Assembly (NCBI GenBank): GCA_003246575.1
Contig: QJZZ01000001.1
Location: 31,978-95,977, forward strand
DNA from: Candidatus Saccharimonadota bacterium
GTDB taxonomy: Bacteria; Patescibacteriota; Saccharimonadia; Saccharimonadales; Saccharimonadaceae
Direction: 5' to 3'
Length of the DNA stretch: 64,000 nt
Each line of letters starts with the position of its first letter. The first letter of the stretch is position 1. This document shows positions 42,016 through 60,115 of this stretch, one piece after another. The translations under genes were made by a program, and so were the position numbers. The notes under the pieces were generated by a model that was not told the origin of the DNA, did not search any database, and saw only the letters and a program-made list of their open reading frames with translations.

Positions 42016-42402
42016 TTATGCAGCGAAACTTGTGATAACGAAGTTGACAGCTGCGTATGCAAGGATAGCAACAATGATACCGATGATGGCATAGAGAATC
42101 GTGTTCTTCGCAGCAGTTACGGCGTTTGAGTCACCGCCAGATACAGTGTAGCGAATACCACCGATAACGAGCATGACGACAGCAACGGCACCGATGACAA
42201 AGAGGAGCACGTTAACAACTGTCTGGAAGACACCGCCTTCGCCGGTCAAGTTACTTGCCTGGCCGTTACCCCTGGCAGCATTGACTGAGTCACTAAGGCC
42301 TGGTACTACAGCAAACGAATCAGCTGGCAAGACAGAGCCAACGACGAGCGCAGCTACAGGCAAGGCAGCGATAAGGCCGATAAGTTTTTTGCTAAATTTC
42401 AT
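42016..42402 (-). CDS. T4SS-type pilin
   Basis: Signal peptide plus IGGIRYTVSGGDSNAVTAAKNTILYAIIGIIVAILAYAAVNFVI. The 28-aa TAAKN..NFVI block is identical to the same block in the 36492 product. Confidence 0.82.
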   Translation of the reverse strand: MKFSKKLIGLIAALPVAALVVGSVLPADSFAVVPGLSDSVNAARGNGQASNLTGEGGVFQTVVNVLLFVIGAVAVVMLVIGGIRYTVSGGDSNAVTAAKNTILYAIIGIIVAILAYAAVNFVITSFAA

Positions 42403-42477
42403 TGATGCTATCCCTTCTTAATTTAGTAGCGTCTTTATCTATTATTTATACCAGATAACGGATTGGGCGTAAAGCCC

Positions 42478-42843
42478 CTAGGCAAAGATCATGATGACGA
42501 ACTGGACTATCGCATAGGCGAATATTGCAACAGCGAGTCCGATGACCGCATACATGATCGTGTCTTTGGCTGCCTTGATTTGACCTGGCTCGCCATTTGA
42601 CGTCGTATAACGAATGCCGCCGACAATAATCATGATCACCGACACGCTACCGATCAAATACAATAAAGTATTGATGATGTTCCGGATCAAGCTTGTTGCA
42701 TCATCGGTATTCGCAGCCTTACATACCTGTGCGTCAGGGTTAGCCGCGCAATCATCGAACACATTGATGGCACCGACTGGCGCAACCAACAGGGTAGAAC
42801 CGAGCCCTACGAGGGTTAATAGATATCCTAATCGTTTCAGCAT
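42478..42843 (-). CDS. T4SS-type pilin
   Basis: Signal peptide plus VGGIRYTTSNGEPGQIKAAKDTIMYAVIG between two TM helices. Confidence 0.8.
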   Translation of the reverse strand: MLKRLGYLLTLVGLGSTLLVAPVGAINVFDDCAANPDAQVCKAANTDDATSLIRNIINTLLYLIGSVSVIMIIVGGIRYTTSNGEPGQIKAAKDTIMYAVIGLAVAIFAYAIVQFVIMIFA

Positions 42844-42852
42844 ATAGACTCC

Positions 42853-43593
42853 TTATCCTACGCTTCCTAATACAAATTGAGTGATAATGTATGCCATCAG
42901 TACTACGATGAGCCCAACAACGGCGCCCAGTATGCCCTTACGTGCACGCTGAACCATCTGCGCATCCCCACGAGACGTCACAAAGAAGAAGCCTGCGATG
43001 ACGATGACGAGCACCGCGACGATTGCCGCCCATATATATGCCGCATTCAAGATTGCAGCCAGTGCGCTCTGATCAGCGCCAACCTGTTGGATGTTCACAT
43101 TAGTACCGCCTATCTTCGATGTCGTACTCGTAGCAGTGAAGATCGATGAGACAAGCGTGACTGTCGCAACAGAAAAGATCGATATAATCAATCCCACCAA
43201 GGAATTGGTGATGGTCTTTTTTGCCGACGTCATGAGATTTGAATCACCAGCACTTGTAATGTACTGATAGCCACCCACGATCAACATAACAAGAGCCGCA
43301 TACCCAACGAGCTGCAGGATAATCTCGATAACGTTCATGACGATACGAGTTACGTATCCTTCGATACCGATTTGCGTATTTGGGTCGGTGACTTTACTCG
43401 CAATATCCTTCAGCTCACAGTTCGTCCCCGGTTTTGTCAGGCCCTTGTACCATGCAGGAAATGTGAGAAGCGTATCGCCACAAGTAGGACCTGTTGCATA
43501 CGTGCTTGTCGCTGGCTGCGCGATAGCTACCAGACCAGAGAGGCTGCCAATTATGGCAAGTGACAGTACGAATCGTTTGAATGTACGAATCAT
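42853..43593 (-). CDS. tandem (two-domain) T4SS-type pilin fusion
   Basis: Starts at MIRTFKRF (43593, TAATG overlap with the upstream gene). It contains two pilin modules: VGGYQYITSAGDSNLMTSAKKTI.. and IAGFFFVTSRGDAQMVQRARKGI.. Confidence 0.78.
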   Translation of the reverse strand: MIRTFKRFVLSLAIIGSLSGLVAIAQPATSTYATGPTCGDTLLTFPAWYKGLTKPGTNCELKDIASKVTDPNTQIGIEGYVTRIVMNVIEIILQLVGYAALVMLIVGGYQYITSAGDSNLMTSAKKTITNSLVGLIISIFSVATVTLVSSIFTATSTTSKIGGTNVNIQQVGADQSALAAILNAAYIWAAIVAVLVIVIAGFFFVTSRGDAQMVQRARKGILGAVVGLIVVLMAYIITQFVLGSVG

Positions 43594-43985
43594 TAGTTGA
43601 ACACCCCTCCTGGGACCAGCCACTGTATGGCCGCCCACATCAATGCGTACGCAACAATACCGATTGCCGCATTTCGAATCATCTCCTTTGCCTTCTTCGT
43701 CTGCCCCTCATCTGATTGGGCGGTAGTGTAGAGGAATGCTGCATAGGCAATCATTGCTACAGCAGCAAGACCGACCGCTCCACTCAATATGTTGACGATA
43801 TAGATCACGAGTAACCACGTACTGCTTGATTCAAGGTCCCCAGCATCAGACCCATCACATATACTCTGGGGGAGGACAGTACAGGTAATTCCAGCAGCGT
43901 ACGTAGGCGTTGATACTACCAGCGCCCCGCCAAGTAGTACGGTCAGTACCCCCGATGAGACGATTATTTGTTTTATTAGATTCAT
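43593..43985 (-). CDS. T4SS-type pilin (divergent)
   Basis: Signal peptide and two TM helices flanking AYAAFLYTTAQSDEGQTKKAKEMIRNAAIG. Confidence 0.72.
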   Translation of the reverse strand: MNLIKQIIVSSGVLTVLLGGALVVSTPTYAAGITCTVLPQSICDGSDAGDLESSSTWLLVIYIVNILSGAVGLAAVAMIAYAAFLYTTAQSDEGQTKKAKEMIRNAAIGIVAYALMWAAIQWLVPGGVFN

Positions 43986-44070: not shown

Positions 44071-44099
44071 TTGACTTTTTGGGCCTAAAGTGGTAGAAT
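44071..44099 (+). promoter_or_regulatory. sigma70-type promoter (TTGACT-17-TAGAAT) ~10 nt before the ATG
   Basis: ttgact ttttgggcctaaagtgg tagaat. The ATG at 44109 lies only 9 nt after the -10. Confidence 0.5.
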
Positions 44100-44108: not shown

Positions 44109-47100
44109 ATGTGGGTTATGCGCAAACTACGCGCGCCGAGGGTACACGTTCGGCGCCTTATTTTTTTGACGGTCATCAGCGTATTTATGGCCGCTCTTAC
44201 CTCAGTCGTTTCGTTCTCGAATACGGCTTTTGCTGCTGATGCCGAATGGAGTGGTGTGACGCTTAGCTACGATGGCAACACCTACGCGGCCACCACGGCT
44301 GCACCTGATCGCCCCGGCGAGCCGAACGAATACCAATGGATAAGTAGCCTTTCTTCGCCAGCGACGGCAAATGTTCTCTATTTTGCTGATGACATTGATC
44401 CGACAGATGCAACCACCGCAACTTTTATCAGTTATACATTTACAGCTCCGGGAAGTAACTATTCGTCACCATCAAGCCCAGTGACCGTTACTGTGACTCG
44501 CGATCTCACTGCAACTGCCGCGAGCGGCACCACAGACTGTGGCGTTGGTGCTATTGGTTGGATTGTTTGTCCAGTGTCAAACTGGATCGCCGACGGCGTT
44601 GACTGGATCTATGACACTATCTCAAACTTCTTTGATGTACAAACGATCACCCAGTCGGGGAACGGTATATATGAGCTTTGGCAACTCGTCAGAACCATTG
44701 CAAACGTTGTCTTCATCATCGTATTCCTCATCATCATATTCTCTCAGATAACCGGCGCAGGCTACTCCAACTACAGCATCAAAGATATGATACCGCGCCT
44801 TATTATCGGAGCAATTCTTGTCAACGTCTCGTTCTGGATCTGCGCACTTGCCGTAGATACATCAAATGTACTCGGCCATTCGATTCAAGCCGTTTTCGAT
44901 AATGTACGGCAAAATTACGTCACAACCGTAGATATAGACTGGACAGCCGCGACAGGTGCCGTGCTCGGTGGACTCGGCATTGCAGGTGTTACCGGGTTTG
45001 CCGCAGCAACAGCAGGAAGCAGCATAAGCCTGTCTTTTATCCTCATCTCCGTCTTGATACCTGCAGCCCTGTCTGTGCTTGCCGCGTTCATCGTACTTGC
45101 AGCTCGCCAAGCGATTATCGTTGTGCTCACAGCGATATCGCCACTCGCATTTGTTGCTTTCGTGCTCCCGAACACGCGAAACCTTTTCGATAAGTGGCGC
45201 AGCCTCTTCACCAACATGCTCATCATCTTTCCAGCATTCGCACTTCTATTTGGTGCATCACAAATTGCCGGAGCAGCGATCATCAAGACGGCCGAGAATG
45301 CCGCAGATGAACTTCAACTCGTCTTCGTTTTGATCGGTCTCGCTGTGCAGGTGATTCCACTCGCACTCACGCCACTGCTATCGCGACTCAGCTCAGGCCT
45401 CCTGAGCCAGGTTTCTGGTATGGTCAATAACCGTCAAAAGGGCCTGGCCGACCGCGCACGCAACTGGGCGCAAGACAACGCCGATATGCATAAAGCACGC
45501 AAACTTGGCAATATCGCCAACGACGTACAACGTCGACGCGAGGGCTTGCAAGTTAGTCCGCTACGCGCTCGTGGTATCGGGCGCCTCGGGTACAATATGG
45601 ACCAATCAAAGCGCACCAGGGAAGCCTACAAGCATCAAAGCGAAGAACTTCTGTCAGCTCAACACGAGGAGCGCTGGAATAACCGTATCGCCAATCCTCG
45701 AGAGGCCGGTGCCGTCCGTTCACGTCTCGGTATGACAACGCTCGACCAGCGCACCGCAACCCAGCACGACATGGCCCACCACGTTAAAAAGCAGGCCGAG
45801 ACCCGCAAAGCGGATCATGAGGCACATGCCGACCAACACTGGAACGAGTACCTTGATGGCGCTGCAGGCGCTGAATACAGGCAACTTCGCCACAACACTC
45901 ATGTCACCAAAGGTATCTCAAAGGTATATGACGATGATATGACCAATGCCGATGAGCTAGCACTCAAGGCATTCGTGAACAATACGGCCGCTCACCGTAC
46001 ACGCGCCGTTCGTGCATCCGTCACTGCCAACCAAGCAAAGGCGCATCAAGACAGTATCGACGCGACAGTGCAAGAAACATGGAACTTGCAACAAGAGGGA
46101 GACGTAAATCTCCGCGCCATGCGTCGTGAGACTGCGCTAACCCAAAAGCGTGCCGAGGTAGTAGAGAAGTCTATGGCTGCTGATGATCAGCGCGTATACG
46201 AAACGCTCGCAAACTCCGATCCAGGATATGCCCAAGTCCGTCAACGACGCGTTCAGACAGTCGTCGATAGCAAGATGGGCGAGTTCCAGGGTAGTCAAAT
46301 CGAAACCGAAGGTGCTCGCGCCTACGCGGCACTGTTCGAGGACGGCCAAGCCGGTTCACGTGCCCTTCGTCAGCAGAATGTTCAGATGGAACAGATGAAG
46401 AAAGAAACCGCCACGATAGAGGCAACCCTCCAGAAGCGCGCTGATGCACACTGGGAGCGCGTATCTCAATCTGACGCAAACGTACAAACACTTCGTGTGC
46501 GACAGACCGACGCCGAGGAGTCTGCACGCAGGTCTGCTGCCGAATGGAACAGCCTAGTTGAACGCGTCCGCGACCAAGGTGCCGCCGCAGACGGATTTGT
46601 TGGCACCACCCAAGACGGCAACTCACTTCAGGCGAACTTCAACGCCGCAACCGGCGCAGAACAGAACCTCGAAAACCTCAAGTCAGTTACCCAAAGCCAC
46701 GCAAAGCAACGCTTCGCCGAAACAGAAGCCGGACGTCGCTCTGCCTTGCGCGCACAAGCGGCCAAAGATTCGCTCGAGAGCGTTCAAGCCGATGAAGCTG
46801 CTCGCGCCCAAGAACTCCGCACCAACAGGGATATTGAAAACCTCACAGGCGAGGACCTCGCTATCGCAACAGAGATGCGCAATGCCGATATCGTTAAGCG
46901 CGCCCAAGATCGCCGCAAAGCGAATGCACTTGGTCAAACTGATGCAGAGTACGCAAGTGAAGTGGCAAGTGACACAGGGTACATACCTGGCACAACCGAG
47001 CGCATAGCCACCATCGCCGGCGGTATAGACAATTACGGCGAGGCACGTGCTATCGCGAGCGCCACCCAAGTAGAAGTCGACCAGTTCAACAAGAATGTCG

Positions 47101-47801
47101 CAACAGAAAAGTCTACGATGACCGGCATGCCCGACAGGTCCGACGACCCGAACAGAGAAACCTGGATGAGCATCGTTCAAGACGACAGTCAGTCTGATGA
47201 ACGTCGCGCTGCTGCTGCTGGCAAGATTATGCAGGGTGGAGCGATGGGTACTATCCAAGCCCTTTACAACTATGCAATTAGCGACCCTAACCTCAGCGAG
47301 CGCTCACGTAAGAATATTGAGATGCAGATGGGTGGCGATATCGGCCGAGTGCCATTTGGTATGGGCGCGGGTGCCCGTGCAGCTATGGCGAGTGGTGCGA
47401 TGGACGCCGATACGGCATTCGCCGGGTTTAATGCAGAACAACGCGCAGCAATCGTAATAGCCATGCAGAACCCAGACGCCGTAAGCCAGCAAAACATTGG
47501 CCAGCTCACACACTATGATGCAATGCTGGGCAACCGCCTCAAGGAAAAAATCTCCGCAGAAGCACTGGTCGGTCTCGACCCAGATGATCGCACCCGCATC
47601 ACCGAACTCTTCAGTGACATCCAACATGACGGCGGCCTCGTACTCCCAGCGGAAGCACGTGCGAATATCATTGATGCAATCCGCGGTGCAGCCTCGAACG
47701 AAAACCTTCGCAAGACCGTACCGCCAGATGCCAAGCGCAGCTACAACACGATCCTTGCAGCGCTTGGTGAGACACCTCTCACCCGTGAAGACTGGGCATA
47801 A
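44109..47801 (+). CDS. VirB6/TrbL-like polytopic T4SS channel protein with ~790-aa hydrophilic C-terminal extension
   Basis: Signal/TM, extracytoplasmic domain, CGVGAIGWIVCPV motif, ~6 TM including ISPLAFVAFVLPNTRNLFDKWRSLF, then an Ala/Gln/Arg/Glu-rich tail. Confidence 0.78.
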   Translation: MWVMRKLRAPRVHVRRLIFLTVISVFMAALTSVVSFSNTAFAADAEWSGVTLSYDGNTYAATTAAPDRPGEPNEYQWISSLSSPATANVLYFADDIDPTDATTATFISYTFTAPGSNYSSPSSPVTVTVTRDLTATAASGTTDCGVGAIGWIVCPVSNWIADGVDWIYDTISNFFDVQTITQSGNGIYELWQLVRTIANVVFIIVFLIIIFSQITGAGYSNYSIKDMIPRLIIGAILVNVSFWICALAVDTSNVLGHSIQAVFDNVRQNYVTTVDIDWTAATGAVLGGLGIAGVTGFAAATAGSSISLSFILISVLIPAALSVLAAFIVLAARQAIIVVLTAISPLAFVAFVLPNTRNLFDKWRSLFTNMLIIFPAFALLFGASQIAGAAIIKTAENAADELQLVFVLIGLAVQVIPLALTPLLSRLSSGLLSQVSGMVNNRQKGLADRARNWAQDNADMHKARKLGNIANDVQRRREGLQVSPLRARGIGRLGYNMDQSKRTREAYKHQSEELLSAQHEERWNNRIANPREAGAVRSRLGMTTLDQRTATQHDMAHHVKKQAETRKADHEAHADQHWNEYLDGAAGAEYRQLRHNTHVTKGISKVYDDDMTNADELALKAFVNNTAAHRTRAVRASVTANQAKAHQDSIDATVQETWNLQQEGDVNLRAMRRETALTQKRAEVVEKSMAADDQRVYETLANSDPGYAQVRQRRVQTVVDSKMGEFQGSQIETEGARAYAALFEDGQAGSRALRQQNVQMEQMKKETATIEATLQKRADAHWERVSQSDANVQTLRVRQTDAEESARRSAAEWNSLVERVRDQGAAADGFVGTTQDGNSLQANFNAATGAEQNLENLKSVTQSHAKQRFAETEAGRRSALRAQAAKDSLESVQADEAARAQELRTNRDIENLTGEDLAIATEMRNADIVKRAQDRRKANALGQTDAEYASEVASDTGYIPGTTERIATIAGGIDNYGEARAIASATQVEVDQFNKNVATEKSTMTGMPDRSDDPNRETWMSIVQDDSQSDERRAAAAGKIMQGGAMGTIQALYNYAISDPNLSERSRKNIEMQMGGDIGRVPFGMGAGARAAMASGAMDADTAFAGFNAEQRAAIVIAMQNPDAVSQQNIGQLTHYDAMLGNRLKEKISAEALVGLDPDDRTRITELFSDIQHDGGLVLPAEARANIIDAIRGAASNENLRKTVPPDAKRSYNTILAALGETPLTREDWA

Positions 47802-47951
47802 CCACCACTTCATATCAGACCATAGGTTCGTCGTATCGACATCTTGTGATATAGCTATTGCTTTTTTTAGCGATATGGTGTATAATACTTTTCAAAGCAT
47901 AAGAATCAGTAATATGCTGTGCGTACAAACGCAGATGAAAGGACACTGTTC

Positions 47952-48812
47952 ATGGCTCAATCACGCAAGAATAAATTTGAACTTCCTAGCAAAGCCAAGG
48001 AGACTAGTGCTAAGGTAGCCGCTACATTAGCAGGTGTTGCACTCCTCGCGGGCTGTGGACCGAGCAGTGAGACATCTGCATCACCAACTCCGAGCGCGAC
48101 AGAAATAACGCAAACGATCGAGTCGCCAACTCCCGTAGAGACACCGACAGCCGAAGCTACAAGTTCACCAGAGCAGACAGCGACTCCTGAATGGCAAGAA
48201 GCACAGGATACTTTGATTAATAGTCTTGAGGCTATGAGCTATGACGACTTCATAGCCACAACAACCCCCGAAGAAAGAGCTGTGTGGTGTGCATATACCA
48301 ACCGCGATGCAGAACTAGAATTTGGAGAGTACTGGGCAACAGCAACGGGCAACCCTCTCGATGCAATAGTATACGGATCCGTAGACGACACCCCTGAAGA
48401 AAAGGTTGCTGTCATGCAAAATATGTCCAGGAGCGCTTTTATACTACATTTCTACCCAGAAGATGGGGGGAATAGCACGTTCTTTGACATGGAAACGTCT
48501 AGGAAGGTTGCTGGGTGCACTTATTTTGAGTCAGACGTAGAAAAGTGGCAGGGATTTGACGAGGGCGTCGTGAACGTCCTAACAGAACACGGCCTCAGTG
48601 AAGCGCCAATGCTTGGTCGAACAGGTAGTTTTCCGATGCTTGATGTTGTTAGCTTCGAGTCGGAATACGTAGGCAACGACGGACGTACCCGACAGGCAAT
48701 TCGCATACAAAATCCACTGAACGGCAACCAGGCCACTCGAACATATGTGACGATTAACTATTCGTACAATGGCGAACCCCGCATCACCTACATGCAAGAC
48801 TTCACTGACTAG
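47952..48812 (+). CDS. lipoprotein (LAGC lipobox), T4SS-locus associated
   Basis: The ATG at 47952 follows an AAAGGA RBS. VAATLAGVALLAGCGPSS. Confidence 0.72.
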   Translation: MAQSRKNKFELPSKAKETSAKVAATLAGVALLAGCGPSSETSASPTPSATEITQTIESPTPVETPTAEATSSPEQTATPEWQEAQDTLINSLEAMSYDDFIATTTPEERAVWCAYTNRDAELEFGEYWATATGNPLDAIVYGSVDDTPEEKVAVMQNMSRSAFILHFYPEDGGNSTFFDMETSRKVAGCTYFESDVEKWQGFDEGVVNVLTEHGLSEAPMLGRTGSFPMLDVVSFESEYVGNDGRTRQAIRIQNPLNGNQATRTYVTINYSYNGEPRITYMQDFTD

Positions 48813-48843
48813 CGTCGACTCATAGGGGGTTCGTATAACACCC

Positions 48844-48877: not shown

Positions 48878-48932
48878 AAAACTATTCAGACATATCCATT
48901 CTATATCATTTATGCTTTAATGGTCTGTAGAT

Positions 48933-53825: not shown

Positions 53826-55654
53826 TGGCCAAAAAACCAGACCCTGTAGATATCGCTGCCGCTCAACGTGCTCGAGAGCAAGCAGAGGTTGAACAGGCAT
53901 TCCTGCGCGGCATGAATACGCTGCGCGACACCATTGCTCCAAGCAGCCTCGAAATCAATGCTTCATATTTCCGCCTCGGCACCAAGTATGGACGCACGCT
54001 ATACATCTATGGCTACCCGCGTGAGATCTACACTGGTTGGCTTTCTGGCCTTATCAATACCGACGAAGTACTCGATATTAGCATGTTCGTTTATCCAGTT
54101 GAGAGTGAAGTTGTTCTCAAGAACCTCCAGAAGAAAGTGACTCAGCTCAATGCAAGCATGGCGATCAACGCCGAGAAGGGACGCACTCGCGATCCGGGCC
54201 TCGAAGCAGCGCTGAATGACGCAGAGGAGCTTCGCGATCAACTACAGGTTGGAGCAGAGCGCTTCTTCCGTTTCGGCATATACGTCACACTGTATGCCGA
54301 TAGTCTAGAAGAGATGGCATTTATCCAGAACAAGATCGAGACGATGTTTGGTCAACAGCTTGTCAAAACAAAAGTCGCCTCCAACCAGCAAGAGCAAGGG
54401 CTCAATAGTACTATCGCTCAAATGACCGACAAGCTCGAAATTCGCCGCAACATGAACACGGGCGCTATCAGTACGAGTTTCCCATTCACCAGCGCCGATC
54501 TTTCAGACGGCAAAGGAATTCTATACGGTATCAATATGCACAATAACGGCCTCGTTATCTTCGACCGCTACAGTCTCGAGAACGCCAACGCGGTTGTCTT
54601 CGCAAAGTCCGGTGCGGGTAAGTCTTTTACCGTCAAACTTGAAGCTTTGCGAAGCATGATGACCGGCGCCGACATCCTTATCATCGACCCAGAGAACGAG
54701 TATCAAAAGCTCTCCGACGCCGTCGGCGGTAGCTACATCCGCCTCAGCCTCAATAGCGATACGCGCATCAATCCATTTGACCTGCCGCGCGTTATCGATA
54801 GCGATGAAGCCGATGATGCATTACGCGCCAACCTCGTCACGCTCCATGGACTCTTCCGCCTGATGCTCGGCGGTAGTCAAATCGCTTCGAATGGACAAAT
54901 GATGGCAGCTATCACACCCGCAGAAGAAGCCGACCTCGACCAGGCGCTTATCGACACCTATGCACGTGTCGGCATTACCAGCGACCCGTTGACACACAAC
55001 TCAGAGCCACCAACTATAGCAGACCTCTACGATACACTCCTACATATGGGCGGCACGGGGCCACAGCTCGCACAACGTTTGCGCAAATTCACAACAGGCA
55101 CCTTTGCCGGCATTTTCTCGCAACAATCAAATATCGATATCAATAACCATATGGTTGTGTTTAATATCCGCGACCTCGAGGACGAACTTCGCCCGATCGC
55201 AATGTATATCGTCCTGAGTCATATCTGGAATATCACTCGCACCATACAACAAAAACGTATGCTTATAGTTGACGAGGCGTGGCAACTCATGAAGTACGAC
55301 GACTCAGCGAACTTCCTCTTCAGCCTTGCCAAGCGTGCTCGCAAATACCACCTCGGGCTCACAACCATCACCCAAGATGTCGAAGACTTCATGGGCAGCA
55401 AGATGGGGCGCGCTATTGTTGCCAACAGTTCTATGCAACTACTCCTGAAACAGTCATCGAGTGCTGTCGATGTACTCGCGGATGTTTTCAAATTAACCGA
55501 AGAGGAGAAAAAGCGCCTCTCAAACTTCCCGGTAGGGCAAGGACTCTTCTTCGCCGGTCAGAACCATGTCCATATGCAAATCATTGCCAGTCAAACCGAA
55601 GAGAAGCTTATCACTACAAATCCGAATGCCGCGCCCCCTGGAGCAAGTGCGTAA
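53825..55654 (+). CDS. virB4: VirB4-family T4SS ATPase (PrgJ/TrsE-like)
   Basis: IAPSSLEINASYFRLGTKYGRTLYIYGYPREI N-terminal pattern, Walker A FAKSGAGKSF and Walker B MLIVDEAWQLM. Confidence 0.9.
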   Translation: MAKKPDPVDIAAAQRAREQAEVEQAFLRGMNTLRDTIAPSSLEINASYFRLGTKYGRTLYIYGYPREIYTGWLSGLINTDEVLDISMFVYPVESEVVLKNLQKKVTQLNASMAINAEKGRTRDPGLEAALNDAEELRDQLQVGAERFFRFGIYVTLYADSLEEMAFIQNKIETMFGQQLVKTKVASNQQEQGLNSTIAQMTDKLEIRRNMNTGAISTSFPFTSADLSDGKGILYGINMHNNGLVIFDRYSLENANAVVFAKSGAGKSFTVKLEALRSMMTGADILIIDPENEYQKLSDAVGGSYIRLSLNSDTRINPFDLPRVIDSDEADDALRANLVTLHGLFRLMLGGSQIASNGQMMAAITPAEEADLDQALIDTYARVGITSDPLTHNSEPPTIADLYDTLLHMGGTGPQLAQRLRKFTTGTFAGIFSQQSNIDINNHMVVFNIRDLEDELRPIAMYIVLSHIWNITRTIQQKRMLIVDEAWQLMKYDDSANFLFSLAKRARKYHLGLTTITQDVEDFMGSKMGRAIVANSSMQLLLKQSSSAVDVLADVFKLTEEEKKRLSNFPVGQGLFFAGQNHVHMQIIASQTEEKLITTNPNAAPPGASA

Positions 55655-55677
55655 CAAAGGGTATAATATAGTACTAT

Positions 55678-58023
55678 ATGGCGCTCTCATACAAGGACGA
55701 CACTGAAGCCGATGAGCGGCTCAGCCCAGCCAATCGCCTCAAGGCTGCCGAGGAAGGTTCGCACGACCGCATCGACGGATACGACCGATCAAGTGACGGT
55801 CTAGATGCTCGTGAGTCTGAATTCAATGCATCCGATACTGCCTCGGCTGCAGAAAATCGATCAGAAAACCCAAACTGGAAGCTCGATGTTGGTAACAAAA
55901 AAATAAAGGTTAAGGGTGGAAGGTTAAAGAAATTTGGCCCTGCCGGCATCATCGGCGGATCTCTTATCGGCGTACTGGGAACGATGATGTCTTTCGCGCC
56001 AACAACCTTGCTAGTGAATCTCAAGGAAAACTTCGTCAATAATTTTGACCAGCAATCTATCATATCTTCAAATCGATCGAATAAAATCATAGCTAAGCGA
56101 TTATCCGGTGAAGCGACTACTGGAGTGTGTACAAGCAAGGTAAGCCTTCTTTGCCGCTATACTCGTCCGTCAAATTATCAAATCAGTCAATTTGACAGAG
56201 CTGGCATAAAAGCCCTTGACGCAAACGGCAATGTAATAGAGAAACGACTATGGCCAAACGCTAGGCCGGCAGCATACGACATACCCGGCGTTGGCAAGGT
56301 ATCGGCCACAGATCTGAATGACGTACTCAGAAACAATCCCCAGGTTCGCAATGCTTTCAAAAGGGCATACAACCCCCGATACGTAAACTGGGTAGACGAT
56401 GTTGCCAGAAAATTATTCAGTAGTTTAGGTGTCGCGAAGGCTATTGACGGAGCACTGTCAGCGGCAGCGAACAAAAAAGCCGCTCAAGCCGCCGTAGACG
56501 GCACTCTTGCCGTAGCAGACAAAGCAGCAGGAAACAGGGCCCTGCGCACTAGCCTATCGGAGCTCATAGAGCGTTTCGCAAAAAAGATGGCAACAAGGTC
56601 GGTAAAAATCGGAAAGCAAGATGCCGTGCTTTTATCCGTTGCCGTTGGGTGTATAGCAACAAAAGTCCCAGGGCTTGTATCGACGGCGATCAAGGCATAC
56701 AGGCTACGAGCCCTTGCAAATGTAGCGTTCAAATTCCTGACAGTAGCGGATGCAATCAAGGCAGGCGAAGCAACTCCCGAAGAAGTTGAGAATGCAGGCA
56801 TCCTCTTAACAGATGTAGTGAATGGAAAGTCGGCTATGGACGGAGCAATTATGTACGGGATTATGGGAGCAAGTAATGTTGGCGCCGCCATGACTCCTGT
56901 AGCGCAAAAATATATCCCCGGCAAAAGCGCTGCATTATGGGATACTGTTAGTCAATATACCGACAACAAAGTCACGAACTCGATTTGTAACATAGCGATG
57001 AACCCGTATGCATCAGCTGCAATCACCGCCTTCAAGTTGGCGAAATACGCCGCCGTTGGGGCAGGTACACTCGGTATCGGTGATGTAGTTCTCTTAGTGG
57101 GAGATATTGCCTCCACTGCCGTGTTCTCGTTACCGGGAGTGGAGTCCGCGATTGCGGATACGGCGACATCTGTGGCGTCCGTGGCATTGAGTGTAATACC
57201 AGACGGAACTCTTGACTCTATATTCAACCTTGCGCTCGGCGATATGACGGAAGGGGTCGCAGGGGAAGACCTATCAGCGGTTATTACAAATGGAGCCGAC
57301 AGCTCAATGTCTCAAGCAGCCGGAATGGGTGGCAGTGTCGCGCTCACTCCGAGCCAAAAAATTGCCTATGACAATGAAATAACTCGACCAACTCAACTCG
57401 CATGGGCAGCCGAGGATCGCGCTAGCCATAGTCCATTCGACGCCTCCAACCCAAACACCTTCCTTGGTTCAATAGTGACTAGACTAATGCCATACTACGG
57501 GAGCCTTAGTAGTATTAGCGGCGTCATGAGCACATTTTTCTCAATATCATCATCCTCGCTTGCAAATTTCCTACAACCGACTAGCTACGCGGCCGACACA
57601 GAAGAGACATGGCAACAATGCACTCAAGACATTTCAGTCGCAACATCGCCAGCAGCGACAGACCCTCTATGTGCTGTGCAATATGGTATACCAGCAGAAT
57701 TTACAAATATAGACCCAGAGACTGTCGTTCAAGATCTCTATGACAGTAATAATATTGATGAAGACGGAGATGTGATATCTGGCAGTGACCTAGAAACTTG
57801 GATGTCCGAGTGTAATACAGGCACATCGGAATCAGCGAGTAATTGTGTTATCCCTAACGCCGACGACAGTAGCTATATAGATAGACTTCGCATAGCTGAA
57901 TTTGCACTCTACCAGATTGATAAGCGCGTTATCGATGGAATGGATAATGTCGACGGAACGACAGATTCTAGCTCCACAAGCGCATTTTATTCATCCATAA
58001 CTGACGCATTGGCGGTCTACTAA
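55678..58023 (+). CDS. 781-aa membrane-anchored orphan of the T4SS locus
   Basis: Acidic N-terminus, one TM (GPAGIIGGSLIGVLGTMMSF), Ala-rich helical and hydrophobic middle, Cys-containing C-domain. A TATAAT lies 11 nt before the ATG. Confidence 0.7.
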   Translation: MALSYKDDTEADERLSPANRLKAAEEGSHDRIDGYDRSSDGLDARESEFNASDTASAAENRSENPNWKLDVGNKKIKVKGGRLKKFGPAGIIGGSLIGVLGTMMSFAPTTLLVNLKENFVNNFDQQSIISSNRSNKIIAKRLSGEATTGVCTSKVSLLCRYTRPSNYQISQFDRAGIKALDANGNVIEKRLWPNARPAAYDIPGVGKVSATDLNDVLRNNPQVRNAFKRAYNPRYVNWVDDVARKLFSSLGVAKAIDGALSAAANKKAAQAAVDGTLAVADKAAGNRALRTSLSELIERFAKKMATRSVKIGKQDAVLLSVAVGCIATKVPGLVSTAIKAYRLRALANVAFKFLTVADAIKAGEATPEEVENAGILLTDVVNGKSAMDGAIMYGIMGASNVGAAMTPVAQKYIPGKSAALWDTVSQYTDNKVTNSICNIAMNPYASAAITAFKLAKYAAVGAGTLGIGDVVLLVGDIASTAVFSLPGVESAIADTATSVASVALSVIPDGTLDSIFNLALGDMTEGVAGEDLSAVITNGADSSMSQAAGMGGSVALTPSQKIAYDNEITRPTQLAWAAEDRASHSPFDASNPNTFLGSIVTRLMPYYGSLSSISGVMSTFFSISSSSLANFLQPTSYAADTEETWQQCTQDISVATSPAATDPLCAVQYGIPAEFTNIDPETVVQDLYDSNNIDEDGDVISGSDLETWMSECNTGTSESASNCVIPNADDSSYIDRLRIAEFALYQIDKRVIDGMDNVDGTTDSSSTSAFYSSITDALAVY

Positions 58024-59351
58024 TGATAAAGAATATCAAAAAGCATATGCGCAGAAGCAAGATCATCCTGTTATCGGCATTAATACTGACAGGTATCATA
58101 CCATCGGCTATCACTCCAGCAAATGTATATGCTGTCGACTGTACCGACAATTCCAACTTCAATAGTCAAAATGAGGTCCTCTTTTTTAGCTGCGAAACTG
58201 CCGCTATACCTTGCAGTACTGGCTCGTCATCGCTCGCCAGCGCCGCGCCAACCAGTCTCACTGGTGCCTCAAACGCAGAAAAAGTATGGAACTACTTCAC
58301 GGCGCGTGGGCTATCACCAGTTGCCGCGGCGGGTGCAATGGGCAATATCGAACAAGAGTCGAGTTTCGATCCATGGGCAGGCGAGGCAGGAAACAATAGT
58401 ATCGACAAGGGGCTTACAGGTGTTGGCTTCGGCTTGATCCAATGGACAAACACAGGAGGTAACTCACAGGGCCGTCGCTATGGTGTCATGAATTACCTTG
58501 AAACAAATGGTGTTAGCCTTGATTCGACAAACGCATCGCAAAATGACCAAGCACTTCTATATGAATTAAATTGGTTATGGGATGGTGAATATAGTAGCGC
58601 CACATGGCAAGAGAAAGTGAATTCCGAGACGTCAGTATCTGGAGACACATCGATCGGTAATGGCGTAGAAGAGAACACAGGCAACGGCTCGGCGCTCCTG
58701 TTTCACGCCCTTGTAGAGCGATCAGCAGATGATGCAGCCCAAAAACAAGAGCGTATCGATAGCGCGCAATCATTCCTCGATACGTTCGGCGGAGGCGCAA
58801 TGGATTGCTCGATGGGCGAGGGCGGCCTAACATACGACCAGGCTGTTCAGTTTATGCAAAGGTATGGCGAGAACGTAAATGGCTATAGCGCGAGAATATC
58901 AGGTAATTATTGGGGATATTGTAACGGTGGCGGATCAAACTGTGTCACGTTTAGCCGCTTCTTCAATGCCGCATTCACTGATATGAAGCTAGGGTCAACA
59001 ATGGGAGATGGTAAGGAGGTCGTTAATAATTTGCGAGCACGAGGCAATCAAACCGGATCTGAGCCGCGGGTATTCTCTACTTTCAGTGGCTGGAACGCTG
59101 GCTATGGACACACGGGTATAATTCTCGGGATCCATGACGGTAAGGTCATCGTCGGTCACGCATCGTGCCAAAATAAGGGCATAGGTAAGGGAAACGGCAC
59201 GGGACAAAACTCTGGATCTGGATGGGCACTTGAAGGTGACCTCGGCACAAGGTCACCATACCTAGGATACAATCCGACTGGATTTGCTTACCCAACATCA
59301 GTAAATACTGCGGCAATCATGGAATTTATAAATAAAGGATACGTTGAATGA
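58023..59351 (+). CDS. cell-wall hydrolase: lysozyme-like domain + C-terminal CHAP domain (VirB1/PrgK-type role)
   Basis: Signal/TM. AAAGAMGNIEQESSFDP..GFGLIQWT is the phage-tail-lysozyme-like motif. NCVTFSRFF..GHTGIILGI fits a CHAP Cys/His pair. Confidence 0.75.
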   Translation: MIKNIKKHMRRSKIILLSALILTGIIPSAITPANVYAVDCTDNSNFNSQNEVLFFSCETAAIPCSTGSSSLASAAPTSLTGASNAEKVWNYFTARGLSPVAAAGAMGNIEQESSFDPWAGEAGNNSIDKGLTGVGFGLIQWTNTGGNSQGRRYGVMNYLETNGVSLDSTNASQNDQALLYELNWLWDGEYSSATWQEKVNSETSVSGDTSIGNGVEENTGNGSALLFHALVERSADDAAQKQERIDSAQSFLDTFGGGAMDCSMGEGGLTYDQAVQFMQRYGENVNGYSARISGNYWGYCNGGGSNCVTFSRFFNAAFTDMKLGSTMGDGKEVVNNLRARGNQTGSEPRVFSTFSGWNAGYGHTGIILGIHDGKVIVGHASCQNKGIGKGNGTGQNSGSGWALEGDLGTRSPYLGYNPTGFAYPTSVNTAAIMEFINKGYVE

Positions 59352-60115
59352 TAATGTCTTTTCGCGATATGTCCGAGAAAAAGAAAGTAATACTCATAGT
59401 CGGGTCTTCTCTGTTATTATTTATTGGAATTATCGTGCTAGGTGTTGTACTCCAGTTATCACACAACCCTTATGGCGAGCGTTTGGTTATCCAGAATTTA
59501 GGTACATACACGTCAGGAAAACCCTCGGATAAGGATCGTATTAACTTCATAGAACATTCACTGTTCCAAACCGTGAATTTAAATTCCAGTTCACCCGTCG
59601 GTGATCGCTCGATTAAAGATATATATATTAGAGACAATTCATTTTCACAAACCAACACCAACGGCGTACACACAGTATCCTTCCTGGTTGATAGTGCCAG
59701 TATAGAGCAGTCATATCGTATATCTTATGAATGGCTCAGCGACGAGTCGGGGGTGCTTGACGAATGGGGAACTGGTGTATTCTGCGTAGATGCCAGCGAT
59801 GTAATCTACGATACATTCTCTTGCTCGGATCTCATTACCGGCATAAGTCACCCTTCGGATTCAACACTTGGATCAATACTTCCTCACGAAACAAACTACT
59901 ACCTGATTGACTACTATATAGACGACAATGGCAAGGCAATTATATCAATAAAAATAATGAGCAATAATAATAGCTCGAGCACGAGTAGGTTCTTCTCGCA
60001 ATATGAAACAACGGCTATCGAATGGCTAAAGCAGAGTGGTGTTGCTATCGGAGACTATGAAATAGTTGTACGAAATCTTTCTGGCGAAATAGTTAAAACG
60101 TACGAAGCTAAATAA
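59348..60115 (+). CDS. bitopic membrane protein (255 aa), candidate VirB8/PrgL analogue
   Basis: ATGA overlap with the hydrolase gene. One N-terminal TM plus a ~210-aa extracytoplasmic domain. The functional call is speculative. Confidence 0.55.
   Translation: MIMSFRDMSEKKKVILIVGSSLLLFIGIIVLGVVLQLSHNPYGERLVIQNLGTYTSGKPSDKDRINFIEHSLFQTVNLNSSSPVGDRSIKDIYIRDNSFSQTNTNGVHTVSFLVDSASIEQSYRISYEWLSDESGVLDEWGTGVFCVDASDVIYDTFSCSDLITGISHPSDSTLGSILPHETNYYLIDYYIDDNGKAIISIKIMSNNNSSSTSRFFSQYETTAIEWLKQSGVAIGDYEIVVRNLSGEIVKTYEAK

What the first reader, a model, noticed from the sequence alone, without database searches (positions are those of the whole stretch)
42016..60115. Chromosomal T4SS-like apparatus without coupling protein, relaxase or integrase, abutting dnaN/oriC
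Four tandem pilin-type genes (42016-43985, minus strand) diverge from a plus-strand block at 44109-60115. The block encodes, in order:
- a VirB6/TrbL-like protein (1230 aa)
- a lipoprotein
- a second VirB6-like protein (957 aa)
- a PrgI/VirB3-like protein
- a 278-aa protein resembling a VirB4 N-domain
- a VirB4 ATPase with intact Walker A and B motifs
- a 781-aa membrane-anchored orphan
- a lysozyme+CHAP hydrolase
- a 255-aa bitopic protein

Nowhere in the 64 kb do I see a VirD4/TcpA-type coupling ATPase, a relaxase, VirB11, a VirB7/9/10 outer-membrane core, or any integrase or transposase.

In known Gram-positive conjugation systems VirB4, VirB6, VirB3 and a hydrolase form the minimal channel, but DNA transfer also needs a relaxase and a coupling protein. 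My inference is that this locus is not a conjugation module. It may be a pilus, contact or export (or import) machine, which would fit a surface-attached lifestyle in a reduced-genome organism. As far as I recall, similar loci have been noted in CPR/Saccharibacteria genomes, with no substrate or structure established.
Basis: partly seen in the sequence, partly recalled or inferred. Interest (0 to 1): 0.8.

Follow-up and report, generated by a model that had tools for sequence, protein, structure and literature searches.

The report
Saccharibacteria chromosomal type IV secretion system
This is the conserved chromosomal type IV secretion/pilus machine of Saccharibacteria (Patescibacteria), already published and shown by others to be essential for growth on a host bacterium; its cargo is still unknown, and this locus is an ordinary copy of it.

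Summary
Positions 42016-60115 encode four VirB2-type pilin genes (five pilin domains) diverging from a 16-kb plus-strand operon:
- two VirB6-like proteins with a lipoprotein between them
- PrgI/VirB3
- a TrsD-type VirB4 N-domain protein
- a short VirB4 ATPase (CD1110 family)
- a 781-aa membrane protein
- a lysozyme+CHAP hydrolase
- a small bitopic protein

The operon ends 2 nt from dnaN, and dnaA, DnaA boxes and rpmH-rnpA follow.

I found no coupling protein, relaxase, integrase or att repeats in the window. Neither of the first two lies within 10 kb of virB4 in 80 related genomes.

The locus matches SEML1_0004-0022 of Southlakia epibionticum gene for gene. Tn-seq showed that system to be essential (Wang 2023). 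The relaxase-free, origin-proximal Patescibacteria T4SS was described in 2025 (Quinonero-Coronel).

Small additions from this work:
- VirB4 is more conserved than DnaA (85% against 68% median identity).
- The "orphan" is a conserved family.
- The same pilin/TrsD/short-VirB4 core occurs on Bacillota and Actinomycetota plasmids.

Function is unresolved. I favour a coupling-protein-independent pilus or conduit to the host.

The parts
42016..42402 (-). VirB2-type pilin, 128 aa. Has a signal peptide and two hydrophobic helices. Last gene of the pilin operon.
   Evidence: Pfam T4SS_pilin 2.4e-10. A hairpin plus T-run terminator lies just downstream, at about 41965-41998 on the minus strand.
42478..42843 (-). 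VirB2-type pilin, 121 aa
   Evidence: T4SS_pilin 5.9e-13 and TrbC/VirB2 4.3e-7. Mbov_0395 pilin-like 4.4e-7.
42853..43593 (-). Tandem double pilin, 246 aa, with two VirB2-like domains in one ORF. The listed GTG start at 43638 is probably too far upstream.
   Evidence: T4SS_pilin 1.1e-13 in two stretches. NF045849 42.2 bits, above its cut-off, in two stretches. The ATG at 43593 overlaps the stop of the upstream gene.
43593..43985 (-). VirB2-type pilin, 130 aa. First gene of the pilin operon.
   Evidence: T4SS_pilin 1.5e-7
44071..44099 (+). Sigma-70-like promoter candidate for the plus-strand operon (TTGACT-17-TAGAAT with an extended TG). It ends 10 nt before the ATG at 44109.
   Evidence: Consensus scan only; sequence. 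Not evidence of function.
44109..47801 (+). Extended VirB6-like protein 1, 1230 aa. It has a signal anchor, a small acidic exodomain, a polytopic core at about residues 187-427, and a charged C-terminal domain of about 800 aa.
   Evidence: Precomputed PF19590 TrbL_3. 35% identity to the 957-aa paralogue over the 310-aa core. Family-level TrbL hits and a TrwI PDB hit. Hydropathy profile. Positional equivalent of SEML1_0013.
47919..48812 (+). Lipoprotein, 297 aa, with lipobox LLAGC. It is the positional equivalent of SEML1_0012, which Wang et al. annotate as NTF2-like (the VirB8/TraM fold).
   Evidence: Sequence. Homologues lie between the two VirB6 genes in 8-9 related loci. No PDB or Pfam sequence match. 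The fold assignment is taken and was not tested here.
48933..51806 (+). Extended VirB6-like protein 2, 957 aa. It has a 340-aa Cys-rich exodomain, a polytopic core at residues 365-645, and a 310-aa C-terminal domain.
   Evidence: Weak match to the Embleya VirB6-like protein (3e-5). Positional equivalent of SEML1_0011.
51826..52965 (+). PrgI/VirB3-like protein, 379 aa. It has two transmembrane helices and then a long Pro/Gln-rich tail.
   Evidence: Pfam PrgI 2.8e-10, residues 5-90. Transmembrane helices at 16-68.
52989..53825 (+). TrsD-type protein, 278 aa (261 aa if the start is at 53040). It is the VirB4 N-terminal domain encoded as a separate polypeptide. Its stop overlaps the virB4 start (TAATG).
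   Evidence: NCBIfam TrsD 2.8e-6, VirB4_plasma positions 94-233, CD1110 positions 12-119. Precomputed PF26593 TraC-like. 62.5% median identity across relatives. Overlap shown.
53825..55654 (+). VirB4 ATPase, 609 aa, lacking the N-domain. Walker A is at nt 54602-54625 and Walker B at nt 55259-55276.
   Evidence: NF045971 375 bits, above the 325-bit cut-off, profile positions 177-732. Pfam P-loop_TraG, AAA_10 and DUF87. 83-88% identity in 80 species.
55678..58023 (+). Conserved membrane protein, 781 aa. It has an N-terminal cytoplasmic segment, a transmembrane helix at about residue 89, and is mostly helical. Relatives often carry a C-terminal M23 peptidase domain. Positional equivalent of SEML1_0007, which is essential.
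   Evidence: 10 word-level homologues, 5 of them with PF01551. Homologues in 58 of 80 loci at about 26% identity. AlphaFold model unusable at pLDDT 45.
58023..59351 (+). Membrane-anchored cell-wall hydrolase, 442 aa: lysozyme plus CHAP. This is the VirB1/TrsG/PrgK role.
   Evidence: Phage_lysozyme2 3.1e-20. CHAP 1e-4, which is sub-threshold. Transmembrane helix at 12-35.
59348..60115 (+). Small bitopic protein, 255 aa, with an N-terminal transmembrane helix and a beta-rich exodomain. It belongs to a fast-evolving family, many of whose members carry PEGA-type beta-sandwich domains. Equivalent position to SEML1_0004/0005.
   Evidence: An iterative HMM search finds 51 relatives in the 80 loci. 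15 of 43 hit PEGA. No homologue by word search. AlphaFold pLDDT 46.
40631..41302 (-). ComF (ComFC-type, double zinc ribbon plus phosphoribosyltransferase), 223 aa. A conserved neighbour, not part of the operon. The listed 366-aa ORF is over-extended.
   Evidence: Pribosyltran 4.3e-7. Translation. Conserved next to the pilins in relatives. SEML1_0021 is non-essential.
41280..41894 (+). Hsp20/alpha-crystallin gene between comF and the pilins (start uncertain). It has a hairpin terminator at 41911-41938.
   Evidence: PDB small heat-shock protein hits down to 3.7e-12. Hairpin. Same position as SEML1_0020.
60118..61218 (-). dnaN. It converges on the T4SS operon, with the two stop codons 2 nt apart.
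   Evidence: Pfam DNA_pol3_beta domains. Sequence.
61476..62996 (-). dnaA. DnaA-box-like sites cluster at 62866-63035 and 61412-61463. rpmH and rnpA diverge from it.
   Evidence: Pfam. One perfect TTATCCACA at 63006 and neighbouring sites with one mismatch. rpmH reading frame.

Best explanation
**What it is**

The locus is the vertically inherited, chromosomal type IV secretion system of Saccharibacteria. It belongs to the 'Patescibacteria clade' of monoderm MPF-FATA-type T4SSs and is the orthologue of SEML1_0004-0019 of Southlakia epibionticum.

**How it most likely works (inferred from what homologues do)**
1. The VirB4 ATPase here is split into a TrsD N-domain protein and a 609-aa motor.
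2. This motor docks on the PrgI/VirB3 protein and on a platform made of the two extended VirB6-like polytopic proteins.
3. The lysozyme+CHAP hydrolase opens the cell wall. The 781-aa protein may help; its relatives often carry an M23 peptidase.
4. The motor extracts the Sec-inserted VirB2-like pilins from the membrane and polymerises them into a pilus or conduit that reaches the host bacterium.

No coupling protein or relaxase is involved, so it does not conjugate DNA.

**My split for what the conduit does**
- Uptake of host macromolecules (Ced/ComB-like import): about 35%
- Delivery of proteins to the host: about 30%
- Pilus-only contact or penetration: about 20%
- Other: the remainder

**Basis of each step**
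- Shown here: identity, gene order, conservation and the missing transfer genes.
- Shown by others, in a relative: essentiality.
- Inferred: the assembly steps and the cargo.
For: **Component assignments**
- Four pilin genes, PrgI, the VirB4 ATPase and the lysozyme+CHAP hydrolase hit their families.
- The TrsD-plus-short-VirB4 split is visible in the NCBIfam profile coordinates.
- VirB6 is supported at family level.

**Operon structure**
- Start and stop codons overlap by 1-4 nt at TrsD/VirB4, 781-aa/hydrolase and hydrolase/255-aa.

**Vertical inheritance**
- The same order (comF, pilins | VirB6 x1-2, PrgI, TrsD, VirB4, large membrane protein, hydrolase, small bitopic proteins | dnaN, dnaA) occurs in 80 Saccharibacteria species genomes.
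- Median identity is 85% for VirB4 against 68% for DnaA and 55% for DnaN. Surface parts are only 26-55% identical.
- G+C is 0.46-0.54, like the rest of the window.

**No transfer genes**
- No coupling protein, relaxase or integrase in the window.
- No coupling protein or relaxase within 10 kb of virB4 in the 80 relatives.
- No att-type repeats flanking the locus.

**Match to the published system**
- The locus corresponds gene for gene to SEML1_0004-0022, whose T4SS genes are Tn-seq essential, while comF and the NTF2-like protein are not (PMC10633639).
- Published surveys describe the same relaxase-free, origin-proximal system (PMC12102498; PMC12857230).

**Established knowledge, not tested here**
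- In Gram-negative systems VirB4, VirB3 and VirB6 are among the components needed for VirB2 pilus biogenesis, and a coupling protein is not needed for it.
Against: **Function not observed**
- No pilus has been seen and no substrate identified. The role is called 'completely unknown' in PMC11665869.

**Weak assignments**
- The two VirB6 proteins of this window give no significant hit of their own in my Pfam and NCBIfam scans.
- Both structure predictions failed, with pLDDT of 45 and 46. The roles of the 781-aa and 255-aa proteins therefore rest on position only.
- A VirB8-like component is not demonstrated here.

**Untested**
- A coupling-protein homologue may exist elsewhere in this genome. 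The 2025 survey finds them in most Patescibacteria, and I could not scan the rest of the genome.
- Essentiality comes from another species, and transposon polarity could inflate it.
Confidence: 0.85

Rival explanations
1. A dedicated import machine. Like the archaeal Ced system or Helicobacter ComB, the pilus and VirB6 channel, driven by VirB4, would pull host DNA or other macromolecules into the epibiont. This would supply nucleotides that it cannot make. This is a specific version of the main explanation, with the direction fixed as inward.
For: - The gene set (pilin, VirB3, VirB4, VirB6, no coupling protein, no relaxase) is what I recall of the Ced and ComB importers. That composition comes from my own knowledge and was not tested here.
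- ComF is a conserved neighbour.
- ComEC is dispensable in S. epibionticum while the T4SS is essential, so nucleotides must enter another way.
- Both PMC11665869 and PMC12102498 propose import.
Against: - The VirB4 is far closer to bacterial conjugative VirB4 (CD1110, 7e-112) than to CedB (5.5e-12) or CedD (3.4e-6). Resemblance to Ced is analogy, not shared descent.
- comF is separated from the pilin operon by a terminator and an opposite-strand Hsp20 gene.
- comF is non-essential in S. epibionticum.
- No nuclease or DNA-binding domain was found in the locus.
Confidence: 0.3
2. An effector translocator. The system would export epibiont proteins into or onto the host actinobacterium to subdue or tap it. 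This would be analogous to the coupling-protein-less Bordetella Ptl or Brucella VirB systems.
For: - Wang et al. suggest that it 'may instead export proteins'.
- There is precedent for effector systems without a coupling protein (PMC12102498; PMC12857230).
- The large charged C-terminal domains of the VirB6-like proteins could act as substrate receptors. They are annotated as ARM-repeat-like in S. epibionticum.
- The fast-evolving surface parts fit host-specific interaction.
Against: - No effector, chaperone or secretion signal is known or visible in the locus.
- A monoderm has no periplasm in which Sec-exported cargo could be loaded, as happens in Ptl.
- No recognisable substrate receptor ATPase is present.
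Confidence: 0.25
3. An ordinary conjugative element (ICE), or one whose relaxase and coupling protein lie outside the window.
For: - The components descend from monoderm conjugation machinery.
- The closest actinobacterial relative (an Embleya plasmid) has a coupling protein and a relaxase right after virB4.
- VirD4-like genes occur elsewhere in most Patescibacteria genomes.
- A tRNA-Ser gene with a nearby 36-nt partial duplicate sits at the left edge of the region.
Against: - The chromosomal position between comF/tRNA-Ser and dnaN is fixed in 80 species.
- VirB4 is conserved more strongly than DnaA, and composition is native.
- No integrase, transposase, relaxase or coupling protein was found in 64 kb.
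- The tRNA repeat spans only 145 nt and does not bracket the locus.
- Only 109 relaxase homologues were found, in 103 of 3,035 Patescibacteria genomes.
- The S. epibionticum coupling-protein homologue is non-essential, while the T4SS is essential.
Confidence: 0.03
4. A decaying remnant of an old conjugative element with no current function.
For: - It lacks the DNA-processing genes.
- Several ORFs have no family hit.
Against: - All reading frames are intact and tightly coupled.
- VirB4 is 83-88% identical across 80 species.
- Walker motifs are intact.
- The orthologues are essential in S. epibionticum.
Confidence: 0.01

Closest known systems
T4SS of Candidatus Southlakia epibionticum ML1, SEML1_0004/0006-0019 (Wang et al. 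2023, Cell, PMC10633639)
   Same: - The gene order is the same, read outward from dnaA-dnaN: small PEGA-type exported proteins, lysozyme-type hydrolase, large membrane protein, 612-aa VirB4, 293-aa TrsD-like protein, PrgI, VirB6 with ARM-like tail, 278-aa secreted protein, second VirB6, pilin array, Hsp20, ComF, tRNA-Ser.
- There is no coupling protein or relaxase in the cluster.
   Different: - recF lies between dnaN and the cluster in S. epibionticum but not here.
- S. epibionticum has six separate pilin genes. Here there are four genes with five pilin domains.
- The hydrolase here is lysozyme+CHAP (442 aa). In S. epibionticum it has three lysozyme-like domains (643 aa).
- The large membrane protein is 781 aa here and 1113 aa there.
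- The comparison rests on the published tables. The S. epibionticum sequences themselves were not aligned here.
Patescibacteria-clade T4SS as surveyed by Quinonero-Coronel et al. 2025 (Microb Genom, PMC12102498)
   Same: - VirB4 nested in MPF-FATA
- TrsD homologue next to virB4
- PrgI/VirB3 and VirB6
- VirB2-like pilin arrays, abundant in Saccharimonadia
- No relaxase
- Proximity to dnaA, dnaN, rnpA and rpmH

   Different: Nothing essential differs. That paper leaves open whether the pilins were co-opted from diderm systems. Here pilin genes sit beside three of the six plasmid loci inspected among the closest non-CPR VirB4 matches.
Conjugative MPF-FATA systems of Gram-positive plasmids and ICEs (pGO1/pSK41 trs, pIP501 tra, pCF10 prg, CTn2/CD1110 family, ICEBs1)
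   Same: - VirB4 of the CD1110 family, above the curated cut-off.
- The run PrgI/TrsC, TrsD, VirB4, membrane protein, bifunctional hydrolase, small bitopic protein parallels trsC-D-E-F-G-H. That order is from my own recollection of the trs/tra operons.
- No outer-membrane core.
   Different: - No coupling protein, relaxase, oriT or mobile-element context.
- It has VirB2-like pilins, which those systems are described as lacking.
- It is fixed at the chromosomal origin and essential in a relative.
Pontibacillus sp. ALD_SL1 898-kb plasmid locus (NZ_CP062975, 351.8-361.4 kb). Similar loci occur on Clostridium perfringens pJFP838A and a Miltoncostaea plasmid.
   Same: - The Pontibacillus locus encodes two T4SS_pilin genes, a TrbL/VirB6 protein (779 aa), a TraL/PrgI protein (116 aa), a TrsD-like protein (28% identity, E 8e-29), a short VirB4 (35% identity) and a large NlpC/P60+M23 hydrolase.
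- No coupling protein or relaxase is annotated within 12 kb.
   Different: - It sits on a megaplasmid of a free-living Bacillota member, next to flagellar genes.
- It has a single VirB6.
- Its function is unknown.
- No homology to the 781-aa protein was detectable.
Archaeal Ced and Helicobacter ComB DNA-import systems
   Same: Both are T4SS-derived, with a VirB4-type motor, a VirB6-like channel and VirB2-like pilin, and no coupling protein or relaxase. This is from established knowledge.
   Different: - There is only generic ATPase-domain similarity: CedB 5.5e-12 against CD1110 7e-112.
- ComB works with ComEC, whereas the Saccharibacteria system is essential although ComEC is dispensable.

Membership tests
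Patescibacteria/Saccharibacteria chromosomal T4SS | VirB4 belonging to the Saccharibacteria lineage | tested here: met
   All 8000 scored candidates have E <= 1e-10, and the best 120 are 86-100% identical. The 80 best genome loci are labelled Saccharibacteria or Saccharimonadales, apart from a few generic or apparently mis-binned labels, at 83-88% identity. No phylogenetic tree was built.
Patescibacteria/Saccharibacteria chromosomal T4SS | TrsD-type VirB4 N-domain protein encoded next to virB4 | tested here: met
   NCBIfam TrsD 2.8e-6 and VirB4 N-terminal profile regions. Present in 77 of 80 loci.
Patescibacteria/Saccharibacteria chromosomal T4SS | PrgI/VirB3 and VirB6 homologues near virB4 | tested here: met
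   PrgI 2.8e-10. VirB6 is supported only at family or profile level.
Patescibacteria/Saccharibacteria chromosomal T4SS | Array of divergent VirB2-like pilin genes in the cluster | tested here: met
   Four genes with five domains. Related loci show 1-6 pilin ORFs within the fetched flanks.
Patescibacteria/Saccharibacteria chromosomal T4SS | No relaxase or coupling protein in the cluster; chromosomal position near dnaA/dnaN | tested here: met
   dnaN lies 2 nt from the last gene. Among the 47 loci with full 10-kb flanks, dnaN is found in 46 and dnaA in 44.
Patescibacteria/Saccharibacteria chromosomal T4SS | Required for epibiotic growth | not testable with these tools
   Known only from Tn-seq in S. 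epibionticum.
Conjugative MPF-FATA T4SS (functional conjugation module) | VirB4 of the monoderm type plus VirB3, VirB6 and a cell-wall hydrolase | tested here: met
   NF045971 above its cut-off. PrgI and lysozyme+CHAP. VirB6.
Conjugative MPF-FATA T4SS (functional conjugation module) | VirD4/TcpA-type coupling ATPase | tested here: not met
   No Pfam or NCBIfam hit in any scanned ORF of the window. A tblastn search with the Embleya coupling protein found nothing in the window at E <= 1, nor in the 80 loci at E <= 1e-3. The rest of the genome was not searched.
Conjugative MPF-FATA T4SS (functional conjugation module) | Relaxase and oriT | tested here: not met
   No relaxase domain in the window. 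oriT was not searched for. The rest of the genome was not searched.
Conjugative MPF-FATA T4SS (functional conjugation module) | VirB8-like (NTF2-fold) bitopic protein | tested here: inconclusive
   - The family of the 255-aa protein shows PEGA-type domains, not VirB8.
- The 297-aa lipoprotein has no sequence match. Its S. epibionticum counterpart is annotated as NTF2-like.
- No usable structure model was obtained.
Integrative conjugative element | Integrase or recombinase, flanking att repeats, atypical composition, variable presence among relatives | tested here: not met
   No integrase. The only tRNA-derived repeat spans 145 nt at 40413-40593. G+C matches the surroundings. The locus is present at the same site in 80 species.
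DNA-import T4SS (Ced / ComB) | Specific homology of the motor to CedB or ComB4, and demonstrated DNA uptake | tested here: not met
   CedB reaches 5.5e-12 at 45 bits against a 700-bit cut-off. The best family is conjugative CD1110. Uptake itself is not testable here.

The most novel reading that the evidence does not exclude
The machine may be a feeding device. It would be a coupling-protein-independent VirB2-type pilus and VirB6 channel, driven by the split VirB4, that draws host nucleic acids or other macromolecules into the epibiont. That would make it the first T4SS that is essential because it nourishes the cell. The idea has been voiced in the literature but is untested, and nothing found here excludes it.

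A second, smaller reading comes from my own data. The pilin + TrsD + short-VirB4 core without DNA-processing genes may be a distinct monoderm T4SS subclass that also exists on Bacillota and Actinomycetota megaplasmids. In that case the pilins would be ancestral rather than borrowed from diderm systems.
Probability: 0.3. Interest if true: 0.85.

Novelty: already known. Interest (0 to 1): 0.3.

Why it matters
Patescibacteria are a large share of uncultured bacterial diversity, and how they live off their hosts is an open question. This T4SS is one of the few machines shown to be essential for that lifestyle, and its cargo and direction are unknown. That question is already posed in print and can be addressed in cultivable, genetically tractable Saccharibacteria. 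This window therefore adds another orthologous copy rather than a discovery.

The extras found here could help people who work on the system:
- the extreme conservation of the motor against fast-evolving surface parts
- the one-to-one gene map to the S. epibionticum cluster
- the pilin-bearing relatives in Gram-positive plasmids

Tried and rejected
**Structure prediction**
- AlphaFold2 on the 781-aa protein with a 10-sequence alignment gave mean pLDDT 45.
- AlphaFold2 on the 255-aa protein as a single sequence gave pLDDT 46.
- Both models are unusable, so I ran no fold searches.

**Homologue searches**
- A word-seeded search found only 10 relatives of the 781-aa protein.
- The same search found none for the 255-aa protein.

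**VirB8-like candidates**
- I tested whether the 255-aa protein, which sits at the TraH/PrgL position, is VirB8-like. The profile search against PDB gave nothing, and family members hit PEGA domains instead.
- I tested the 297-aa lipoprotein against PDB and Pfam, alone and as a 9-sequence profile. There was no signal.

**VirB6 and other assignments**
- Direct Pfam and NCBIfam scans of the two VirB6-like proteins, whole and in pieces, were negative. This is despite a precomputed TrbL_3 hit. Family-level scans resolved it.
- The 781-aa family profile did not match the Pontibacillus hydrolase.

**comF as part of the pilin operon**
- I considered this and rejected it. A terminator and an opposite-strand Hsp20 gene intervene.

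**The tRNA-Ser partial duplicate as an ICE att site**
- I considered this and rejected it. The two copies are 145 nt apart and do not bracket the locus.

**Source genome**
- I could not identify the source genome by name.

Full report
**What is in the sequence**

The region holds four minus-strand ORFs at 42016-43985 and nine plus-strand ORFs at 44109-60115.

Pilins:
- All four minus-strand products match Pfam T4SS_pilin above its gathering score (E 1.5e-7 to 1.1e-13).
- One also matches TrbC/VirB2.
- In NCBIfam they match the Mycoplasma-ICE 'Mbov_0395 pilin-like' family.
- The third gene carries two pilin domains. It most likely starts at the ATG at 43593, which overlaps the upstream stop. 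That gives five pilin domains in four genes.

Plus-strand products with family hits:
- 51826-52965 is a PrgI/VirB3 protein (2.8e-10).
- 53825-55654 is a VirB4 ATPase. It passes the curated cut-off of the CD1110-type conjugal ATPase family (375 bits against 325). It aligns only from profile position 177 onward. Its Walker A (AKSGAGKS, residues 260-267) and Walker B (MLIVDE, residues 479-484) motifs are intact.
- The 278-aa protein just upstream matches TrsD and the N-terminal stretches of VirB4 profiles. The VirB4 is therefore split into an N-domain protein and a motor. The two genes overlap by one base (TAATG).
- 58023-59351 is a membrane-anchored lysozyme (3e-20) plus a sub-threshold CHAP domain.

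The two large 'VirB6-like' proteins:
- They gave no hit of their own in my scans.
- They are paralogues, 35% identical over a 310-residue polytopic core.
- 31 of 70 relatives of that core hit Pfam TrbL/VirB6.
- The family profile's only match in the PDB is TrwI, the VirB6 of plasmid R388 (E 0.004).
- A precomputed table lists TrbL_3 for the 1230-aa protein.

Context to the right:
- dnaN, dnaA, rpmH and rnpA follow.
- DnaA-box-like sites cluster at 62866-63035 and 61412-61463.

**What is absent**

The rest of the window is housekeeping: Nramp, ribonucleotide reductase, ValRS, FemAB, TsaD, Mur ligases, GroEL, PGI, a MacB-type ABC exporter and five tRNAs.

- No scanned ORF has a coupling-ATPase, relaxase, VirB11, integrase or transposase domain.
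- A tblastn search with the coupling protein and relaxase of the closest actinobacterial conjugative relative found nothing in the window. It also found nothing within 10 kb of virB4 in 80 related genomes.
- No long direct repeats bracket the locus.
- G+C content is like the surroundings.
- These absences were tested for the window, not for the whole genome.

**Relatives**

- The VirB4 has thousands of close homologues. The named ones come from Saccharibacteria.
- A scan of species-representative genomes returned 80 loci, almost all labelled Saccharibacteria or Saccharimonadales, at 83-88% VirB4 identity.
- Gene order is conserved: comF and pilins on one strand; then one or two VirB6 genes, PrgI, TrsD, VirB4, a large membrane protein, a hydrolase and one or two small bitopic proteins; then dnaN and dnaA converging.

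Median identity to the window's proteins:

| Protein | Median identity |
|---|---|
| VirB4 | 85% |
| DnaA | 68% |
| TrsD | 62.5% |
| DnaN | 55% |
| PrgI | 46.5% |
| Pilins | 35-55% |
| VirB6 | 30-34% |
| Hydrolase | 29% |
| 781-aa protein | 26% |

The cytoplasmic motor is therefore under stronger constraint than the replication initiator, while the exposed parts evolve fast.

**It is a published system**

Wang et al. 2023 (PMC10633639) describe an 'apparent T4SS (SEML1_0006-0019)' in Southlakia epibionticum. They report that it:
- is essential by Tn-seq,
- resembles Gram-positive conjugative systems,
- has essential pilins,
- lacks recognisable coupling and relaxase proteins.

Their supplementary tables give an order that maps one to one onto this window:

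| S. epibionticum gene | Description | Tn-seq |
|---|---|---|
| dnaA, dnaN, recF | | |
| 0004/0005 | prealbumin- and PEGA-type exported proteins | essential |
| 0006 | lysozyme-like | essential |
| 0007 | 1113 aa | essential |
| 0008 | VirB4/TraC | essential |
| 0009 | 293 aa | essential |
| 0010 | PrgI | essential |
| 0011 | VirB6-like with ARM-type tail | essential |
| 0012 | 278 aa, NTF2-like | not essential |
| 0013 | TrbL/VirB6 with ARM-type tail | essential |
| 0014-0019 | pilins | essential |
| 0020 | Hsp20 | essential (not a T4SS gene) |
| 0021 | ComF | not essential |
| 0022 | tRNA-Ser | not essential |

The match extends beyond the finding's coordinates:
- The window has an Hsp20 gene at 41280-41894.
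- The true ComF starts at 41302.
- tRNA-Ser lies at 40361-40448.

Quinonero-Coronel et al. 2025 (PMC12102498) surveyed 3,035 Patescibacteria genomes. They report:
- the monophyletic VirB4 clade nested in MPF-FATA,
- TrsD, PrgI, VirB6 and VirB2 arrays,
- the near absence of relaxases,
- the proximity to dnaA, dnaN, rnpA and rpmH,
- VirD4-like genes elsewhere in most genomes; the one in S. epibionticum is not essential.

A 2025 review files these systems as a new T4SS type and speculates about a pilus acting as a conduit. A 2024 perspective calls the role 'completely unknown'. I found no later paper in the held library that resolves the function.

**The unassigned proteins**

- The 781-aa protein is not an orphan. 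It has 10 word-level homologues, five of them with a C-terminal M23 peptidase. It also has relatives in 58 of 80 loci.
- The 255-aa protein belongs to a fast-evolving family of small N-terminally anchored proteins, found in most loci by iterative search. Of 43 members, 15 carry PEGA-type beta-sandwich domains. This agrees with the PEGA annotation of SEML1_0005.
- I found no sequence support for a VirB8 fold in the 255-aa protein or in the 297-aa lipoprotein.
- Both structure predictions were too poor to use.

**How it probably works**

Two points come from general knowledge and were not tested here. First, VirB4, VirB3 and VirB6 are among the components needed for VirB2-pilus biogenesis in Gram-negative systems, and a coupling protein is not needed for it. 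Second, monoderm systems need a wall hydrolase.

My inference is as follows:
1. A split VirB4 motor docks on PrgI and on the two VirB6 proteins.
2. It extracts the pilins from the membrane and assembles them through a hydrolase-opened wall into a filament or conduit to the host.

The steps shown here are the component identities, the operon coupling, the conservation and the lack of DNA-processing genes. Essentiality is shown only in a relative. Assembly, direction and cargo are inferred.

I put import of host macromolecules at about 35%, protein delivery at about 30% and contact only at about 20%. Conjugation or a remnant is unlikely.

**Outside the Patescibacteria**

The best plasmid matches to the VirB4 are 35-36% identical.

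- A Pontibacillus megaplasmid carries two pilin genes, VirB6, VirB3, a TrsD-like protein, a short VirB4 and a large NlpC/P60+M23 hydrolase. No coupling protein or relaxase is annotated within 12 kb.
- TrsD-like genes also precede short VirB4s on Clostridium perfringens pJFP838A and a Miltoncostaea plasmid.
- An Embleya plasmid and a Streptomyces plasmid have a pilin gene and a PrgI-TrsD fusion. The Embleya plasmid also has a coupling protein and a relaxase.

VirB2-like pilins and the TrsD split therefore exist in monoderm relatives. This bears on the published question of whether the pilins were co-opted from diderm systems.

**Verdict**

The system is already known, and its function remains an open problem that others have stated. 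I score interest low to moderate, because the locus adds no new kind of system.

Noticed in passing
window 40413-40448 and 40558-40593: The 5' 36 nt of tRNA-Ser(tga) (gene at 40361-40448, minus strand) are repeated exactly 145 nt away, between the tRNA and comF. Zero such matches are expected by chance. This may be a scar of an old recombination or integration event. It does not bracket the T4SS.
   Followed up: partly
window 40631-41894: The 366-aa ORF at 40631-41731 is an over-extension. The real ComF (zinc ribbon plus PRTase) starts at 41302. An Hsp20/alpha-crystallin gene lies on the opposite strand at 41280-41894, with a hairpin terminator at 41911-41938. The pilin operon has its own terminator at about 41965-41998.
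   Followed up: yes
window 53825-55654 compared with L002-L081: VirB4 is more conserved across 80 Saccharibacteria species (median 85% identity) than DnaA (68%) or DnaN (55%). The surface components of the same operon are only 26-55% identical.
   Followed up: partly
window 60113-60120 and 62866-63035: The 16-kb T4SS operon converges on dnaN with only 2 nt between the two stop codons and no terminator. It points toward the DnaA-box cluster upstream of dnaA. If oriC is there, this conserved operon (essential in S. epibionticum) is transcribed head-on to replication. All 80 related loci fetched and S. epibionticum share this convergent orientation.
   Followed up: partly
window 44071-44099: A good sigma-70-like promoter match (TTGACT-17-TAGAAT with TG) ends 10 nt before the first ATG of the operon. 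This suggests a leaderless or very short-leader mRNA, or a start at the second Met (44118).
   Followed up: no
L082 (Pontibacillus NZ_CP062975), L087 (C. perfringens pJFP838A), L085 (Miltoncostaea), L083/L084 (Embleya, Streptomyces): Gram-positive megaplasmids carry the TrsD + short-VirB4 core, and three of them also have VirB2-like pilin genes. Some have no coupling protein or relaxase nearby (Pontibacillus, beside flagellar genes). In the two actinobacterial plasmids PrgI and TrsD are fused in one protein.
   Followed up: partly
P0114; L008 and L039: A VirB4 that is 88% identical is labelled Streptomyces caniscabiei and sits on a 957,675-bp contig. Contigs in an 'Acidobacteriota' MAG and a 'Flaviaesturariibacter' MAG carry Saccharibacteria-type VirB4. 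These are probably an epibiont genome in a host culture and mis-binned contigs.
   Followed up: no
window 32697-40268: Seven ORFs of 174-628 aa have no significant Pfam or NCBIfam hit. The 628-aa one has only sub-threshold winged-helix matches. They are interspersed with four tRNA genes, three of them tRNA-Ser. Their function is unknown, and no mobile-element genes were seen.
   Followed up: partly
window 44109-47801 and 52989-53825: My Pfam scans gave no hit for these two proteins, although the precomputed table attached to the contig look-up lists PF19590 TrbL_3 and PF26593 TraC-like for the identical products. The cause may be a library or filter difference. Negative scans of these membrane-rich or low-complexity proteins should not be over-read.
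   Followed up: partly
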